Below are positions 1 to 7,618 of a stretch of 7,777 bases of DNA, one piece after another. Every line of letters starts with the position of its first letter. Positions within the stretch are counted from its first letter, which is position 1. Below the pieces are notes generated by a model, which was not told where the DNA came from, did no database searches, and saw only the letters and a program-made list of their open reading frames with translations. Made by a program: the position numbers and the translations under genes. Source of the stretch: a virus (Duplodnaviria > Heunggongvirae > Uroviricota > Caudoviricetes). Location: the IMG/VR virus record IMGVR_UViG_3300000059_000049, positions 1 to 7,777 of that record; one strand, given 5' to 3'.

Positions 1-96
1 AGGGTGAACATCCTCGTTAGTTCCGGCAAGCGCACTAATAACCTCATCGGCAGCTTCAATAATTTTCTTGGCCTGTTCTCTGGTAATACTGGTCAT
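1..96 (-). CDS. hypothetical protein, 5' part only (gene runs off the left edge of the window)
   Basis: ATG at 94-96 (minus strand) opens a frame that stays open for 32 codons to the window edge (MTSITREQAKKIIEAADEVISALAGTNEDVHP...). Same orientation as the rest of the block, 10 nt after the stop of the 107..640 gene. Only a weak SD upstream; not in the ORF track because it is short and truncated. Confidence 0.3.
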   Translation of the reverse strand, partial: MTSITREQAKKIIEAADEVISALAGTNEDVHP

Positions 97-106
97 AATT
101 TATGCT

Positions 107-640
107 TTAGTTGTAGCCAATCGGATTAACAGCAACAATAACGCCATCCGCGAACAAATCTTTAATGAGGTGTTCGCTCGGCTCGCCTTTTTCGTACTCT
201 TCAATAAGGTAAGTGTCTCCATCTTCATTGATATAAACAGGAAGAATGGAACCGTTGATGAAGTAGGTTCCGTTGTTATCGAGGATTTTTGCCTCGGCGA
301 TTTGTTTTTTGGTAAAACGATCTTCTTTTGTCAAAGTTGCCATATCTGTTTCCTTATGTGGGTTAATTTTATTGTGTAGCTTCCTGAATGGGGTCCACAC
401 TATATCGATATACAGTTCAACTAACGGTTCAAATACTCTCCCCATTAGAACAGTCACTAATATTGAGGCTATTGGTATCAGCAACACAAAAAACAGAATG
501 ATAAACAGCAATTCTATTGCTCTACTCTTTCGCGGATATTCTTTTCTGAATAAAGTGGGCATTTCCTCCCCATTAAATGCGTCAATGATTTCTCCAGTGT
601 TTTGCGCTGCACCGAAATTATCTTTAAATCCTTTTTTCAT
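107..640 (-). CDS. single-pass membrane protein of unknown function (177 aa), AT-rich cargo-like gene
   Basis: ORF with ATG at 638-640 preceded by GAGGAAG 11 nt upstream. Translation has a basic stretch (RKEYPRKSR) followed by one strongly hydrophobic segment (LLFIILFFVLLIPIASILVTVLM), then a ~110-aa hydrophilic domain. The region 100-660 is visibly more AT-rich than the rest of the window. An in-frame internal ATG at 341-343 is preceded by AGGAAACAG. Confidence 0.6.
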   Translation of the reverse strand: MKKGFKDNFGAAQNTGEIIDAFNGEEMPTLFRKEYPRKSRAIELLFIILFFVLLIPIASILVTVLMGRVFEPLVELYIDIVWTPFRKLHNKINPHKETDMATLTKEDRFTKKQIAEAKILDNNGTYFINGSILPVYINEDGDTYLIEEYEKGEPSEHLIKDLFADGVIVAVNPIGYN

Positions 641-646
641 CGTTTG

Positions 647-1336
647 CTATTCTTCCTCACATCCAAGATATGAAAGAGATGTAATTGCTTTCGCACGGAA
701 ACCACCAATATTCCTAAGCGCGCTTTTAAGTTCTTCAAGGTCAGATTGTGATTTGATCATGAAACTTAACCGCGCAATTCCAGACATAGAGTCAGAACCA
801 TTCACTGCGTTGTAGTGATATATGTATCGGGTGACTGATTGAGTCACGCCCTCCTGCTGGTGGTTTATATTGGCGTCCTGTCTTGTGTTGGCCTGCTCCA
901 ACTCTTCGATACGTTCAGCCATCGCAGCACACTCTTCAAAGTTGCTTAATGCTTTTCGCTCCGATTCAGCGCATTGTTTTTCCAGTTCTGCTATGCGCTT
1001 ACCTCCATCCACGATTACTCCCTCGTAATGCTCGCGCTGCTCGTTGAGTTTTGATTTTGCCGACTCCAGTTGTTTTGTTAGTTCCGCAATTCGGCAAACA
1101 TCGTTGATACGCGTTTCCTCTAATGCGTTGATCTCATCCAGTAGTGCCAAAGCAACCTTTGGATTAAAGGCAGCAATAAATTCAGCGTTGTTTTTCAGAA
1201 CGTGTTGCGCAATGGCCTGACTACTTAGTCGGACCTCATAACCACGTGCGCCACGGTGTGGTTTATATGAGTCCCAGTCTCCCCACGTTGCTTTCACTGC
1301 CGCCTCACGCAGTGCCTGGTAATTAATTTCGCTCAC
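647..1336 (-). CDS. Ea22-like (ead/Ea22 family) coiled-coil phage protein, 229 aa
   Basis: GTG start at 1334-1336 preceded by AGGAGG (spacing 6). N-terminus MSEINYQALREAA... shared with neighbouring paralogs; central segment predicted coiled-coil from sequence ([26 protein letters not shown]). Shares a 38-nt near-identical DNA segment with the 6256..6888 gene. Confidence 0.75.
   Translation of the reverse strand: MSEINYQALREAAVKATWGDWDSYKPHRGARGYEVRLSSQAIAQHVLKNNAEFIAAFNPKVALALLDEINALEETRINDVCRIAELTKQLESAKSKLNEQREHYEGVIVDGGKRIAELEKQCAESERKALSNFEECAAMAERIEELEQANTRQDANINHQQEGVTQSVTRYIYHYNAVNGSDSMSGIARLSFMIKSQSDLEELKSALRNIGGFRAKAITSLSYLGCEEE
1023..1060. repeat. 38-nt segment shared between Ea22-like paralogs (partner at 6560..6597)
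   Basis: tcgtaatgctcgcgctgctcgttgagttttgattttgc versus tcgtaatactcgcgttgctcgttgagttttgattttgc, 2 mismatches; encodes the KSKLNEQRE(H/Y)YEG segment in both proteins. Confidence 0.7.
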
Positions 1337-1347
1337 TGGTTGCCTCC
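1323..1347. repeat. gene-junction cassette ttaatttcgctcactggttgcctcc, copy 1 (copy 2 at 1768..1792, degenerate copy near 2030..2042)
   Basis: 25-nt segment repeated with 1 mismatch at 1768..1792. On the minus strand it reads GGAGGCAACCAGTGAGC..AAATTAA, i.e. SD plus GTG start plus first codons of an Ea22-like gene, and contains the TAA stop of the upstream gene. Confidence 0.7.
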
Positions 1348-4955: not shown

Positions 4956-5227
4956 TTTGTTTTTTCCTGTCTGAACATCACTATCATCAGGTCGCCTTTT
5001 GTCGCTATCCTCGCTGTTGTGCCTGGTTCAATGCTGCCAAGTTCAAATGCGTCATAGAACGCTTCTAATGCCTTCTGGCGTAGTTCCTGTTTGCGCCGTT
5101 TTTTCCACTGTTTCAGGAAAATGGAACCCAGCCATCGCCATGTACGGGACATGATGTAAAGCCAACCGAGAAGTGCCAGACCGGAATTTAGGAGCGTATC
5201 GATCGTTATTGTCGTGTCGATATTCAC
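4952..5227 (-). CDS. small membrane protein, 91 aa, one hydrophobic segment followed by a highly basic stretch
   Basis: GTG at 5225-5227 overlaps the upstream stop (GTGA), with strong SD AAGGAGG 7 nt upstream. Hydrophobic segment LLNSGLALLGWLYIM followed by KQWKKRRKQELRQK. Confidence 0.6.
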   Translation of the reverse strand: MNIDTTITIDTLLNSGLALLGWLYIMSRTWRWLGSIFLKQWKKRRKQELRQKALEAFYDAFELGSIEPGTTARIATKGDLMIVMFRQEKTK

Positions 5228-5934
5228 TGGCTGCCTCCTTTGCGAAGCTGTTCAGCAATACTTACGCATATCTCTGCGCCTCTAATCAGCCCCGGAACAT
5301 TCTTGTTTGGACCAACTTCACCATCGACAAAATCAATCATCGCGTTACGAGCCATATCCACGCCCTGCGCACGTACTTCAGCCAGGAAAGCATCGGTGGC
5401 TGGGGTGTCAACACGGATACTGTCGCGCAAGATGAAAAATGCATTGAGCATTCCAGTCTCTGGCACTTCATCCTGATGCTTCTCATACGCATCAAGAGCC
5501 TTCATCATCTCAGCTCCGAATGGTTGAGGGTGCACAGACTTCAGCTCCGCATTCTCCGCCGCCAGCACCGCGCGTTCGCTCTCCAGTTCTGTAATGCGCC
5601 GTCTTGCAGCATCCAGTTCAATCGACAATTTTTCCAACTGCTCTTTATGCTTCTTGTATTCCTGATATGCGTGCCAAGACTGACCTTTGCGCACACTATC
5701 CGTGATATCAGTAATCTGTTCTGGTGTTAGCGCGGTCAGTGCCTGTGCTGGGAAAATCAGCACTTTCCCGGAATCCCAATCAAAACCAGCGTGAATTGAC
5801 TGAACCTCAACTGAAGGTGTTGAACCAATGCTGCCAGGCGAATGAACAACGATCGTTACATCCATATCGCGACGATGGCTGTGGTTGTTGGACAAAATAC
5901 GATTCACCAACTCAGAAAATTTGGAAAATTTCAT
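5224..5934 (-). CDS. Ea22-like mosaic coiled-coil phage protein, 236 aa
   Basis: ATG at 5932-5934 overlaps the upstream stop (ATGA), AAGGGA upstream; the GTG-extended form from 5985 is rejected. Central segment predicted coiled-coil ([33 protein letters not shown]). C-terminal part paralogous to the 7115..7618 product ([12 protein letters not shown]; two near-identical DNA segments). Confidence 0.75.
5369..5403. repeat. 35-nt segment shared between paralogs (partner at 7347..7381)
   Basis: gcacgtacttcagccaggaaagcatcggtggctgg versus gcacgtatttcagccaggaaagcgtcggtggctgg, 2 mismatches; encodes PATDAFLAE(V/I)RA. A second shared segment lies at 5549..5574 and 7509..7534 (26 nt, 1 mismatch). Confidence 0.7.
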
Positions 5935-6254
5935 GCTGATTCCCTTTGCTCTTCCTGGATAATGTTGTTGCAATCTTTCACGCACTCGTTGCAGATGAAA
6001 ACGTTGTCCCCGGCAATTAACTTTTTAACGGTGTGCTGGGATTTGTTGCAGAAGCTGCAATAAAGCGTTGGACTGGCTGATACGGATGGTGCGCCAGATG
6101 TCAGCCGCGCGATGTCGTTCTTGCGACGCAATATCACACGGCTGCACTCGACCAGCATCTCCGGGGATATATCCTCCTCCGTGGCGAGCGCCTCCAGACG
6201 TTCGAGCAAGCGAAATACTTTTTCCTGGGTGATTGCAGAATGCGATGTGGTCAT
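5931..6254 (-). CDS. small phage protein with C-terminal ClpX-type C4 zinc-finger (ClpX zinc-binding-domain-like), 107 aa
   Basis: ATG at 6252-6254 with AAGGAG 6 nt upstream, 1 nt after the upstream stop. C-terminal [39 protein letters not shown] (encoded at roughly 5950-6070) matches, from memory, the E. coli ClpX N-terminal zinc-binding domain [40 protein letters not shown], including all four Cys. The N-terminal ~60 aa are unrelated; the AAA+ module is absent. Confidence 0.75.
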
Positions 6255-6255
6255 C

Positions 6256-6888
6256 TCACTCTCCTTTGATGCGAATGCCAGGGGCGCGTGGCACATTAAC
6301 TTCCACGATGCGCACAGTTGGTTTGTACATCTCAATTGCTGTCAGCCAGTCAGCTCCTGTCATGCGCTTTTCCGCATCGCCATTAGTCCACTGAACCGGT
6401 ACACCAATAGCCTTCATCGCGATTTCTATTTCCCCGGCAATGGCGCTTTTTCCGCAACCAGTAAAACCAGAAACAACGACAAGAACTTCACCTTTGGCTG
6501 GTTTTATTTCCCGTGCTTCCAGTTCTGCAATACGCTTACTCCCATCCGAGATAACACCTTCGTAATACTCGCGTTGCTCGTTGAGTTTTGATTTTGCTTC
6601 CTCAAGCTCAACACGCAGCTTCCCTACCGTTAGCGCAATATCCTCGTTCTCCTGGTCACGGCGTTTGATGTATTGCTGGTTTCTTTCCCGTTCATCCAGT
6701 AGTGCCAGCACGGTTTCTGGTCCGGCCAGAAATTTGAAGGCGTTGAGCGCATCAATATCCACACCGTAATCTTTAAGTTCCTGTTCACTTATCAGATCAT
6801 CATCAACTGGCAACATTAACAGGCGTTCCATTGCCGGAATTGCACGTTCTGCCGCCTCACGCAGCGCCAGTGTGTCGATATTGCTCAT
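6256..6888 (-). CDS. Ea22-like coiled-coil phage protein with a Walker-A-like GxxGxGKS motif in its C-terminal part, 210 aa
   Basis: ATG at 6886-6888 with GAGGAGG upstream, overlapping the upstream stop (ATGA). N-terminus [16 protein letters not shown]; [13 protein letters not shown] segment shared with 647..1336 (38-nt DNA repeat). [18 protein letters not shown] is encoded at about 6430-6475. The longer form from 6912 is rejected. Confidence 0.75.
6560..6597. repeat. 38-nt segment shared between Ea22-like paralogs (partner at 1023..1060)
   Basis: See partner at 1023..1060; read directly from the sequence. Confidence 0.7.
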
Positions 6889-7118
6889 TGTGCCTCCTCG
6901 ATTTCGTCCCATTCCACCCAGGCATTCTCTCCATCAGCATCGATTTCGCCTTTGTGACCGCATTTGGAACAGACGGCCTCATCACCCGCCCACAAAGAAT
7001 CTTTGGTTACCGACCATCCTGTTACCTTGGCTTTGCCGTGCTGGCACTTAGGGCAATCATCAAGCCATTCGACTTCGACCGTTGACGGACCAAATCCATG
7101 TTCAGTTCGGATGCTCAT
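6885..7118 (-). CDS. small zinc-ribbon protein (two CxxC pairs) with acidic C-terminus, 77 aa
   Basis: ATG at 7116-7118 overlaps the upstream stop (ATGA), AAGGAG 8 nt upstream. DDCPKCQHGKAKV...CSKCGHKGEI gives a CxxC-N26-CxxC zinc-ribbon pattern; ends EWDEIEEAQ. Confidence 0.7.
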   Translation of the reverse strand: MSIRTEHGFGPSTVEVEWLDDCPKCQHGKAKVTGWSVTKDSLWAGDEAVCSKCGHKGEIDADGENAWVEWDEIEEAQ

Positions 7119-7618
7119 GACTGAACTCCTTTGCGAATCTGTTCCGCCCATTCTTCAAGGGATTTCTCCGCATATTCACCGGACAGGCCATCAATTGGGT
7201 GCGGTTCATTAGCCAACTCTTCTTTCGCTGACAGAATCATGCGTGTAACGTCGAAAACTTCACGTAAAGACTTATTGATAAATCCGTGGTTGAAAGCGGC
7301 AGCAAGGCGGCTTGCGGTGTAGTTAATCCCCTCGTTGCGTGCCTCCGCACGTATTTCAGCCAGGAAAGCGTCGGTGGCTGGCATATTTCCTGTTACTTTC
7401 ATGGCCTCCAAAATAACCAGAACGCCATCTCGCCCAACCAACTCGGAGATAATCTCAGTGTTGTCGCCAACAACATCACAGAATGCCTGAACAGCTTTAC
7501 GAGCAAGTGCATTCTCCGCCGCCAGCGCCGCGCGCTCTTTCTCAAGTCGGGAAATTTCCGTTACATACTCAGCGTTACGCTCTGCCAGTTGTGCGGGCGT
7601 TAAACCTTCAGACTTCAT
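7115..7618 (-). CDS. Ea22-like mosaic coiled-coil phage protein, 167 aa
   Basis: ATG at 7616-7618 with AAGGAG 6 nt upstream. Predicted coiled-coil LEKERAALAAENALARKA and the [12 protein letters not shown] segment are paralogous to the 5224..5934 product, with near-identical DNA at 7347..7381 and 7509..7534. Confidence 0.75.
   Translation of the reverse strand: MKSEGLTPAQLAERNAEYVTEISRLEKERAALAAENALARKAVQAFCDVVGDNTEIISELVGRDGVLVILEAMKVTGNMPATDAFLAEIRAEARNEGINYTASRLAAAFNHGFINKSLREVFDVTRMILSAKEELANEPHPIDGLSGEYAEKSLEEWAEQIRKGVQS
7347..7381. repeat. 35-nt segment shared between paralogs (partner at 5369..5403)
   Basis: See partner at 5369..5403. Confidence 0.7.

What the first reader, a model, noticed from the sequence alone, without database searches (positions are those of the whole stretch)
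107..640. AT-rich membrane-protein gene with an internal lacZ-like ribosome-binding site: moron-like cargo, possible exclusion or abortive-infection factor
This gene is compositionally distinct (clearly AT-richer than the rest of the window), which suggests separate acquisition. It encodes an N-in single-pass membrane protein (basic stretch, then a 23-residue hydrophobic helix) with a ~110-aa C-terminal domain. Inside the ORF, an in-frame ATG at 341-343 is preceded by AGGAAACAG-AT, a near-copy of the classic lacZ SD context, so the C-terminal 78 aa (MATLTKEDRF...) may also be made as a separate soluble product. A membrane-anchored protein with a nested soluble isoform at the distal end of a prophage operon fits superinfection-exclusion or Abi-type morons, but its function is unknown.
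Basis: partly seen in the sequence, partly recalled or inferred. Interest (0 to 1): 0.65.

Follow-up and report, generated by a model that had tools for sequence, protein, structure and literature searches.

The report
Two phage genes fused by one-base deletion
The 177-codon "membrane-protein gene" is really two normally separate small phage genes (plus a scrap of a third) joined in frame by a one-base deletion that removed a stop codon, and the "internal lacZ-like ribosome-binding site" is the second gene's own start signal; this is an ordinary event in a recombination-prone phage region, and nothing points to a defence role.

Summary
The ORF 107-640 (minus strand, 177 aa), its low GC (38% against 48%), its single hydrophobic helix and the in-frame AAGGAAACAGAT-ATG at 341-355 are all real.

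It is not one purpose-built gene. It has three parts:
- Codons 1-26 are a frameshifted remnant of a 62-aa upstream gene.
- Codons 27-97 are a complete DUF4014 small membrane protein, which normally is 72 aa long and has its own stop.
- Codons 100-177 are an independent 78-aa gene. It stands alone in phage JEP4, and a 67-aa form stands alone in phage STP03.

Relatives that keep the same two genes separate read AAGGAAAGCTGATATG (stop, one base, start). The window and phage D6 read AAGGAAAC(A/T)GATATG, one base shorter, so the stop is lost and the genes fuse.

The internal Shine-Dalgarno sequence and ATG are therefore the second gene's ancestral start. That makes a free 78-aa product plausible alongside a membrane-anchored fusion.

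The fused form is common: a cluster of 160 sequences on 133 contigs. Both halves show dN/dS below 1.

The function of both halves is unknown. There was no hit to defence-system models, no structural match, and no promoter or terminator of its own, and the gene is not at an operon end. The exclusion/Abi moron reading is unsupported. Interest is low.

The parts
107..640 (-). Composite open reading frame of 177 codons plus a TAA stop: leader remnant + DUF4014 + 2-codon bridge + 78-aa gene
   Evidence: Pfam and PHROG matches split it into two units
563..640 (-). Codons 1-26 (MKKGFKDNFGAAQNTGEIIDAFNGEE). This is a frameshifted remnant of the 3' end of a 62-63-aa upstream gene (…SAAQNRWKNxLRTKGE*). 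Its ATG at 638-640 has a poorly spaced SD (12 nt).
   Evidence: DNA alignment with L008, L011, L012 and L013. An 11-nt gap in the alignment puts this leader out of frame in NZ_LR890273. It is absent in D6. SD spacing.
350..562 (-). DUF4014 / phrog_1832 small membrane protein, codons 27-97. The start ATG is at 560-562. This is the stretch PGAP annotates as a 'DUF4014 family protein, missing C-terminus' pseudogene in near-identical records.
   Evidence: Pfam PF13198, E 1.5e-19, 70.6 bits, profile positions 2-71 of 72. phrog_1832, E 2.2e-30, positions 1-71 of 72. PGAP annotation.
443..511 (-). Predicted transmembrane helix, residues L44-M66, preceded by the basic motif FRKEYPRKSR
   Evidence: hydropathy and charge counts; AlphaFold helix
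341..355 (-). Fusion junction AAGGAAACAGATATG. It holds the SD (AAGGAAA, 349-355), the site of the 1-nt deletion (between 348 and 349) and the ATG (341-343) of the downstream gene. The ancestral form is AAGGAAA(G/A)CTGA(T/A)ATG, with a TGA stop.
   Evidence: junction comparison; SD energy and rarity
107..343 (-). Independent 78-aa gene (MATLTKEDRF…NPIGYN*), acidic (net -7), predicted to be a small beta-rich domain. The family's conserved 67-aa core is 110-307.
   Evidence: stand-alone orthologues JEP4_26, WP_000212569.1 and STP03_027; family alignment; AlphaFold pLDDT 75
647..1336 (-). Upstream neighbour: an Ead/Ea22-like gene whose TAG stop lies 6 nt before the ORF's first ATG
   Evidence: Pfam PF13935, E 1.1e-20
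1..97 (-). Start of the next co-directional gene (MTSITREQAKKII…), a homologue of ES18 gp38. In ES18 that gene directly follows the DUF4014 gene.

Best explanation
The ORF is a stop-loss fusion. It lies in the accessory 'ea' gene array of a D6-like phage-plasmid, the kind of array that in lambdoid phages follows the ead/Ea22 genes.

Shown:
- Ancestrally, a 72-aa DUF4014 membrane protein gene ended …AAG GAA AGC TGA. One base later came the ATG of a separate 78-aa gene. The DUF4014 gene's last codons (Lys-Glu, AAGGAAA) doubled as the next gene's Shine-Dalgarno sequence.
- Deletion of one base (AAGGAAAGCTGATATG to AAGGAAACTGATATG) removed the stop and put the second gene in frame.
- A similar accident upstream put a 26-codon remnant of a third gene in frame.

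Inferred:
- Ribosomes that start at the DUF4014 start (Met27, or Met1) now read through. They make a bitopic inner-membrane protein (N-in, one helix) carrying the 78-aa domain on a flexible linker at its C-terminal end, probably on the periplasmic side.
- The intact, unstructured SD-ATG at 341-355 still allows independent initiation. That would yield the free cytoplasmic 78-aa protein, the form made wherever the gene stands alone.

The biochemical role of both parts is unknown. They behave as dispensable, freely shuffled accessory proteins in a co-directional gene array. They do not behave as a self-contained defence cassette expressed from the prophage.
For: 1. Two separate family matches. 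DUF4014/phrog_1832 covers residues 27-97 over the full 72-position profile. The 78-aa part has no Pfam hit. phrog_8930 (116 positions) covers residues 62-177, so it spans the junction.

2. Stand-alone DUF4014 genes of 72 aa end in a stop followed 1-3 nt later by the next ATG. This holds in an Stx1c phage, ES18, Bas106 and an Actinobacillus phage.

3. The same two genes are unfused and adjacent in E. coli TUM2820 and in plasmid pZ0117EC0062-2. Their junction is exactly one base longer than in the window and in D6.

4. The 78-aa gene stands alone after a different gene in JEP4, at 97.6% identity. A 67-aa form stands alone in STP03.

5. In a sample of 24 IMG/VR loci found through the protein core, 9 are fused to DUF4014, 1 is unfused after DUF4014, 2 follow an Ea22-like gene and 12 are short stand-alone forms. 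All 12 copies that carry the N-terminal MATL extension (9 fused, 1 unfused after DUF4014, 2 after an Ea22-like gene) keep an SD-like purine run before the same ATG: AAGGAAA after DUF4014, AAAGGAGAG after the Ea22-like gene.

6. The fused protein is widespread: a 177-aa cluster of 160 sequences on 133 contigs, plus 151-aa forms.

7. Between the window and D6, dN/dS is 0.30 for the DUF4014 part and 0.11 for the 78-aa part. The binomial P against neutrality is 0.002 and 0.0002.

8. AlphaFold of the fusion gives a long helix, a linker with pLDDT below 50 spanning the junction, then a beta domain, with pTM 0.37. This indicates two independent modules.

9. The SD at the internal ATG pairs at -6.2 kcal/mol with a 6-nt spacing in unstructured RNA. 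Only 1.7% of ATGs on this strand do as well.
Against: - No expression data exist, so whether one, the other or both products are made is inferred.
- PGAP calls the DUF4014 part a pseudogene.
- The fused copies are closely related (94% identity or more in the 78-aa part), so retention of the SD and ATG says little on its own. The ATG is also just a Met codon of the long ORF.
- The window-D6 divergence may partly predate the deletion if the junction spread by recombination. L133 is such a mosaic. In that case dN/dS would not measure constraint on the fused state.
- The starts available to the DUF4014 part in this window have poorly spaced SDs (1 nt for Met27, 12 nt for Met1). The long product may therefore be made at low level.
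- The N-in/C-out topology rests only on the positive-inside rule.
Confidence: 0.8

Rival explanations
1. Decaying wreckage. The one-base deletion inactivated the DUF4014 gene, as in PGAP's pseudogene call. Only the 78-aa protein made from its own start still matters, and the long ORF is an accident that has not yet picked up a stop.
For: - PGAP annotates a pseudogene in three near-identical records, and annotates the 78-aa CDS separately in one of them.
- The region is littered with chimeric and deleted ORFs: P0024, P0025, P0027, P0031, P0035 and P0039.
- The leader is itself a frameshifted remnant.
- L144 has a disrupted DUF4014 N-terminus.
- The SD spacing is poor for Met1 and Met27.
Against: - The frame is open across all 534 nt in more than 130 contigs and in alleles about 10% diverged.
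- dN/dS of the DUF4014 part is 0.30, not about 1.
- In D6 the DUF4014 start keeps the standard coupled junction AAAGGAGAGTGATGTG.
Confidence: 0.2
2. Selected 'Rosetta-stone' fusion. DUF4014 and the 78-aa protein work together, and tethering the 78-aa domain to the membrane is the adaptive, functional form. The internal start would be irrelevant, or would give a regulated second pool.
For: - Where the two genes are adjacent, the fused state outnumbers the unfused one: 9 to 1 in IMG/VR, plus D6 and several plasmids.
- The fused unit travels intact through at least 3 upstream and 2 downstream contexts.
- Both halves show dN/dS below 1.
Against: - The two genes are usually not neighbours. DUF4014 is mostly followed by an unrelated 87-aa gene. 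The 67-aa core gene sits among varied neighbours with no consistent membrane-protein partner.
- The same stop-less DUF4014 allele is also found fused to that unrelated 87-aa gene (P0024).
- AlphaFold shows no contact between the domains.
- The predicted N-in/C-out topology would put a normally cytoplasmic protein in the periplasm.
Confidence: 0.12
3. One reading: a single, separately acquired moron encoding a membrane-anchored protein with a designed nested soluble isoform, acting in superinfection exclusion or abortive infection.
For: - Low GC.
- A single-pass membrane helix.
- A real internal start.
- Some known exclusion proteins are small membrane proteins (own knowledge).
Against: - The architecture arose from a 1-nt deletion between two independent genes.
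- There is no promoter-like or terminator-like site on the gene strand in 1-1500.
- The gaps to both neighbours are only 6 and 9 nt, inside a long co-directional array.
- No PADLOC hit and no Pfam hit other than DUF4014 above gathering score; NCBIfam gave only one weak hit far below its cut-off.
- There is no published work on DUF4014 in the library searched.
Confidence: 0.05

Closest known systems
Phage D6 orf103 (YP_009914780.1, annotated 'DUF4014 family protein', 151 aa)
   Same: Same fused DUF4014 + 78-aa architecture and the same 1-nt-shorter junction (AAGGAAACTGATATG). It is 87% identical over residues 26-177 and sits in the same place in a D6-type phage-plasmid, after the ppp, pdcB and Ea22-like genes.
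   Different: It starts with GTG at the Met27 position, directly coupled to orf102, and has no 26-codon leader. One base differs in the spacer (ACT against ACA).
Stand-alone DUF4014 (PF13198) / phrog_1832 proteins: ES18 gp39, an Stx1c-phage 72-aa ORF, Bas106_0022, pPE4 gp22. The D6 record's note also likens orf103 to 933W gpL0067.
   Same: Full-length profile match. They share the basic FRKxYPRxSR motif, one hydrophobic helix and the LHNKINPYKE tail. They also share the position after the ead/Ea22-like genes.
   Different: Those proteins are 72 aa long and have their own stop, followed 1-3 nt later by the next gene's ATG. Here the stop is missing and 80 more residues follow.
Free-standing 78-aa / 67-aa genes: JEP4_26, WP_000212569.1, Salmonella phage STP03_027
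   Same: JEP4 is 97.6% identical and STP03 is 83% identical over the core. JEP4 uses the same ATGGCAACTTTG start.
   Different: They are separate genes. In JEP4 the gene follows an Ea22-like gene ending …KGE*. In STP03 it is on the opposite strand between head and portal genes and is followed by a hairpin and a T run.
Nested in-frame dual-start phage genes (lambda S107/S105, lambda C/Nu3, phiX174 A/A*, T7 gene 4A/4B). Named from own knowledge, not tested here.
   Same: One reading frame has two initiation sites, so a long product and a co-terminal short product could both be made.
   Different: Those are old, conserved designs with demonstrated products. This one is a recent accident at a gene boundary, its products are undemonstrated, and its two halves are unrelated proteins.
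Small membrane superinfection-exclusion / Abi proteins (lambda SieB, P22 SieA, HK97 gp15, T4 Imm).
   Same: A small phage-encoded membrane protein in a non-essential region.
   Different: There is no sequence or profile similarity, no transcription signals of its own and no phenotype data.

Membership tests
DUF4014 (Pfam PF13198) / phrog_1832 | Profile match above the curated gathering score | tested here: met
   70.6 bits against a cut-off of 23.2; residues 28-97 match profile positions 2-71 of 72. phrog_1832 E 2.2e-30.
DUF4014 (Pfam PF13198) / phrog_1832 | Small protein of about 72 aa ending …NPY(K/R)E(N/S/D) with its own stop codon | tested here: not met
   The stop is missing because of a 1-nt deletion, and the frame runs on for 80 more codons. 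Typical members are 56-95 aa.
DUF4014 (Pfam PF13198) / phrog_1832 | One hydrophobic helix after a basic N-terminal motif, and a position after ead/Ea22-like genes | tested here: met
   for the helix; for the context
phrog_8930 (unknown function, 116-position profile) | Profile match | tested here: met
   E 2.8e-74 over residues 62-177. The profile's first 38 positions lie in the DUF4014 part and start at about Met66. The family therefore appears to be built on this same chimeric ORF called from an internal Met.
Moron (an independently transcribed insert in a phage genome; definition from own knowledge of Juhala/Hendrix) | Own promoter and terminator flanking the gene | tested here: not met
   No promoter-like sites and no minus-strand terminator-like sites in 1-1500. 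The gaps to neighbouring genes are 6 and 9 nt. This was a simple consensus scan only.
Moron | Present or absent between otherwise conserved neighbours; atypical base composition | tested here: met
   The 78-aa gene is absent between DUF4014 and the MTxITREQ gene in ES18, and is deleted in pEC361_3. GC is 0.38-0.40 against 0.48.
Known anti-phage defence / Abi / exclusion systems | Match to a model of a known or candidate defence protein | tested here: not met
   No PADLOC hit for the 177-aa or the 78-aa protein at E up to 0.01.
Known anti-phage defence / Abi / exclusion systems | Protection or infection-dependent toxicity phenotype | not testable with these tools
   Needs a phage challenge experiment.
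Nested dual-start gene | In-frame internal start codon with a functional ribosome-binding site | tested here: met
   SD pairing of -6.2 kcal/mol at 6-nt spacing in unstructured RNA. The same ATG is the sole start in the stand-alone orthologues JEP4_26 and WP_000212569.1.
Nested dual-start gene | Two co-terminal protein products actually made | not testable with these tools
   Needs tagging and a western blot, N-terminal proteomics or initiation-site ribosome profiling.

The most novel reading that the evidence does not exclude
The fusion is kept by selection as a dual-localisation device. The same acidic 78-aa domain would be delivered to the outer face of the inner membrane as a DUF4014-anchored fusion, and to the cytoplasm from the retained internal start. 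This would give the phage-plasmid two activities from one frame, and would imply that DUF4014 and the 78-aa protein act on a common target.
Probability: 0.1. Interest if true: 0.5.

Novelty: new member of a known kind. Interest (0 to 1): 0.22.

Why it matters
The main value is for annotation, and as a clean example of a known process.

It shows base by base how a one-nucleotide deletion at a tightly coupled TGA-N-ATG boundary turns two genes into one ORF with a ready-made internal start.

It also explains inconsistent database treatment of the same DNA:
- PGAP annotates a pseudogene, with or without a separate 78-aa CDS.
- RefSeq annotates D6 orf103 as a 151-aa 'DUF4014 family protein'.
- phrog_8930 has a profile that straddles the junction.

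It removes a candidate from the list of possible defence genes. If someone wanted a natural system to study the loss of termination-reinitiation coupling against de novo internal initiation, the fused and unfused alleles form a matched pair.

Tried and rejected
- Function by sequence. Pfam gives only DUF4014. NCBIfam, PADLOC and Rfam give nothing meaningful.
- Literature. There were 0 papers for 'DUF4014' and 0 for the PHROG phrase 'released from the phage upon host infection'. I found no published source for that label in the library searched and disregard it. A review of exo-xis proteins does not mention DUF4014 under any of the terms I searched (transmembrane, membrane, L0067, DUF). It says only that a variable gene set follows ea22.
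- Conserved partner. I looked for a conserved partner gene next to the 67-aa core gene in five other phage contexts. The neighbours differ.
- Species representatives. A pattern scan of GTDB representative genomes gave 0 matches, so the element is strain-level accessory DNA.
- Plus-strand ORFs overlapping the region (68-379 and 273-815). I set these aside because all the family matches found lie on the minus-strand frame; the plus-strand ORFs themselves were not searched.
- Assembly error as the cause of the frameshift. Rejected, because the same junction occurs in D6, in several complete plasmids, in a chromosome and in 9 IMG/VR contigs.

Full report
**What is there**

The minus strand carries an ATG-to-TAA reading frame at 107-640 that encodes 177 residues. 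It is the lowest-GC part of the window: 0.384 against 0.483 overall. Every 534-nt window with GC of 0.40 or less starts at positions 1-357.

The GC deficit is largest at codon positions 1 and 2. GC1/GC2/GC3 are 0.47/0.29/0.40, against roughly 0.58/0.41/0.47 in the other genes. Most of it therefore reflects a protein rich in Ile, Leu, Phe, Lys and Asn, and only about 7 points lie at silent sites.

Residues 44-66 form a strongly hydrophobic stretch (Kyte-Doolittle 19-residue mean of 3.24). Its N-terminal flank carries +5/-2 charges and its C-terminal flank +1/-3, so the positive-inside rule favours N-in/C-out.

The in-frame ATG at 341-343 is preceded by AAGGAAACAGAT. This differs by one base from the lacZ leader as I remember it. 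Predicted anti-SD pairing is -6.2 kcal/mol at 6-nt spacing. Only 3 of 181 ATGs on this strand do as well. The surrounding 91 nt are essentially unstructured.

**It is not one gene**

Pfam matches only residues 28-97, to the whole 72-position DUF4014 profile (E 1.5e-19). The last 78 residues match no Pfam family. PHROGs gives phrog_1832 (72 positions) for residues 27-97. It also gives phrog_8930, whose 116 positions run from residue 62 to the end, across the junction.

Near-identical DNA (97-98%) occurs in about 90-kb D6-like E. coli plasmids and in one chromosomal prophage. In those records PGAP annotates window-equivalent 350-562 as a 'DUF4014 family protein, incomplete, missing C-terminus' pseudogene. 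In NZ_LR890273 it also annotates the internal-ATG product as a separate 78-aa CDS, WP_000212569.1.

BLAST matches to other phages break exactly at about 346-348. JEP4 and APC_JM3.2 share only 90-346. pEC361_3 shares only 348 onward.

**The junction, base by base**

Free-standing DUF4014 genes are 72 codons long and end …AAT AAA ATT AAC CCx TAx AAG GAA A(A/G)C TGA. The next gene's ATG follows one base later. This holds in an Stx1c phage, Bas106 and Actinobacillus phage pPE4. ES18 gp39 ends in TAA followed by CCC and then ATG. The Lys-Glu codons AAGGAAA thus serve as the downstream gene's Shine-Dalgarno sequence.

The very same gene pair, DUF4014 then the 78-aa gene, exists unfused in E. coli TUM2820 and in the D6-like plasmid pZ0117EC0062-2. 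The three junctions compare as follows:

| Source | Junction | State |
|---|---|---|
| TUM2820, pZ0117EC0062-2 | CCATATAAGGAAAGCTGATATGGCAACTTTG | two genes, TGA stop present |
| Phage D6 | CCATACAAGGAAA-CTGATATGGCAACTTTG | fused |
| This window | CCACATAAGGAAA-CAGATATGGCAACTTTG | fused |

One deleted base removes the TGA from the frame and brings the next ATG into frame, giving …K E T D M A T L….

**The second gene is independent**

In the P22-like phage JEP4 the 78-aa gene (97.6% identical) follows an Ea22-like gene that ends …IRIKGE*. The junction there is AAAGGAGAGTGATATGGCAACT.

In the virulent Jerseyvirus STP03 a 67-aa version lies alone on the opposite strand between head and portal genes. 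It is followed by a GC hairpin and a T run.

The family is small: 20 clusters of 67-80 aa, all enterobacterial. Its conserved core begins at KQIAEAKILD. The MATLTKEDRFT extension is specific to the E. coli lineage. It shares its first codons with other genes that follow DUF4014, such as MATLQELIDL… and MATLTKKERAWLNE….

**The leader is also a remnant**

Codons 1-26 align at the DNA level with the 3' end of a 62-63-aa gene (…SAAQNRWKNxLRTKGE*). A 1-nt deletion after GCGCAAAAC shifts the frame, and the stop has been lost. In NZ_LR890273 an 11-nt gap at this boundary puts the leader out of frame. D6 lacks the leader and starts with GTG at the Met27 position, coupled to orf102. The 177-codon frame is thus three pieces.

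**How common, and is it maintained**

The 177-aa protein belongs to a 90%-identity cluster of 160 sequences on 133 contigs. The 151-aa D6-type forms make further clusters.

A pattern scan of IMG/VR found 110 unfused junctions and 9 fused ones. Most of the unfused junctions precede an unrelated 87-aa gene. All 9 fused junctions precede the 78-aa gene. This scan required the SD and the ATG in its pattern, so it cannot speak to their conservation.

An independent sample, found through peptides of the protein core, gave 24 loci:

| Arrangement | Loci |
|---|---|
| Fused to DUF4014 | 9 |
| Unfused, after DUF4014 | 1 |
| After an Ea22-like gene | 2 |
| Short stand-alone forms | 12 |

All 12 copies that carry the MATL extension (the first three rows) keep the same ATG with an SD-like purine run before it: AAGGAAA after DUF4014, AAAGGAGAG after the Ea22-like gene.

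The fused unit occurs with at least three different upstream contexts and two downstream contexts.

Between the window and D6, dN/dS is 0.30 for the DUF4014 part (16.5 non-synonymous and 14.5 synonymous differences) and 0.11 for the 78-aa part (5 and 10). Both depart from neutrality, with binomial P of 0.002 and 0.0002.

There is a caveat. Recombination is active here; L133 combines a D6-type DUF4014 tail with a window-type 78-aa gene. Some of this divergence may therefore predate the deletion.

**Structure and function**

The fused 151-aa model shows one long helix, a linker with pLDDT below 50 across the junction, then the same beta domain, with pTM 0.37. The two modules appear independent.

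DUF4014 is a narrow family. It has only 13 clusters at 50% identity among 1.84 billion representative proteins. No paper in the searched library mentions it.

There are no PADLOC hits. No promoter-like site, and no terminator-like site on the gene strand, lies in 1-1500. No Rfam family matches.

The gene sits 6 nt after an Ead/Ea22-like gene and 9 nt before the next gene. It lies in a long co-directional array that continues for more than 15 genes in related plasmids.

**Most likely mechanism**

Shown: two ancestrally separate, translationally coupled genes were fused by a 1-nt deletion. The internal SD-ATG is the second gene's native start.

Inferred:
- Ribosomes that initiate on the DUF4014 part now read through and make a membrane-anchored fusion.
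- Independent initiation at 343 still yields the free 78-aa protein. It probably does so less efficiently than before, because termination-reinitiation coupling is gone.
- In this window the upstream starts have poorly spaced SDs (1 nt for Met27, 12 nt for Met1). The long product may therefore be minor.

The biochemical roles are unknown. The parts behave as dispensable, freely shuffled accessory genes.

**Rivals**

- *Neutral wreckage, in line with PGAP's pseudogene call.* This fits the many other chimeric ORFs in the region: P0024, P0027, P0031, P0035 and P0039. It fits less well with the open frame in diverged alleles and with dN/dS below 1.
- *A selected functional fusion.* This fits the predominance of the fused state where the two genes are adjacent. 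It is weakened because the two genes are usually not neighbours. The stop-less DUF4014 allele is also found fused to an unrelated gene (P0024).
- *The exclusion/Abi moron reading.* No test supports it.

**Verdict**

It is a new instance of a known kind of event: a stop-loss fusion that creates a nested start. It lies in database-known but unstudied families. Interest is low. The main value is in correcting annotation.

Noticed in passing
window 1331-1344, 1776-1789, 2029-2042, 5222-5235 (minus strand): The gene-boundary motif GGCA(A/G)CCAGTGA(G/A)(C/T) occurs four times, against 0 expected in shuffles. Each copy holds the SD and GTG start of one gene overlapping the last codons (…EATSE…) of the previous gene. 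A second boundary type, AAAGGAGAGTGA(T)ATG/GTG ('…KGE*'), recurs in related phages. These conserved linkers look like the recombination points at which modules are shuffled.
   Followed up: partly
window 5931-6335 (minus strand): A 134-aa protein whose C-terminus is a ClpX C4-type zinc finger (PF06689, E 1.4e-17). It is a phage-plasmid-encoded copy of the ClpX N-domain and could interfere with ClpX substrate or adaptor recognition.
   Followed up: no
window 647-1336, 1323-1781, 6256-6912 (minus strand): Three Ead/Ea22-like paralogues lie within 7.8 kb. Their repeated N-terminal sequences could drive the deletions seen in database chimeras such as P0027 (an Ea22-like N-terminus joined to the last 48 residues of the 78-aa protein).
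   Followed up: partly
phrog_8930 (matched at window residues 62-177): This PHROG's 116-position profile begins inside the DUF4014 transmembrane region, at about Met66 of the ORF, and runs through the 78-aa protein. The family therefore appears to be built on mis-started calls of this same chimeric ORF.
   Followed up: partly
L009 2498-2701 (Salmonella phage STP03): A 67-aa homologue of the 78-aa protein sits alone on the opposite strand between the head-morphogenesis and portal genes of a virulent Jerseyvirus. It is followed by the hairpin ggccccataacggggcc plus a T run. This copy of the gene looks like a true moron.
   Followed up: partly
window 7116-7118 against 7149-7151 (minus strand): The ORF listed as 6885-7151 probably starts at the ATG at 7116-7118 (MSIRTEH…) rather than at 7149-7151. 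That ATG has a strong, well-spaced SD (-8.2 kcal/mol, 6 nt) and forms an ATGA overlap with the stop of the upstream gene.
   Followed up: no
P0031, P0035, P0039, P0024 (database proteins related to the window ORF): Further in-frame chimeras occur at the same gene boundaries: Ea22-like + DUF4014 (271 aa), the N-terminus of the 62-aa gene + a DUF4014 C-terminus, and the stop-less DUF4014 fused to an unrelated 87-aa gene. Boundary fusions seem to recur in this region.
   Followed up: partly
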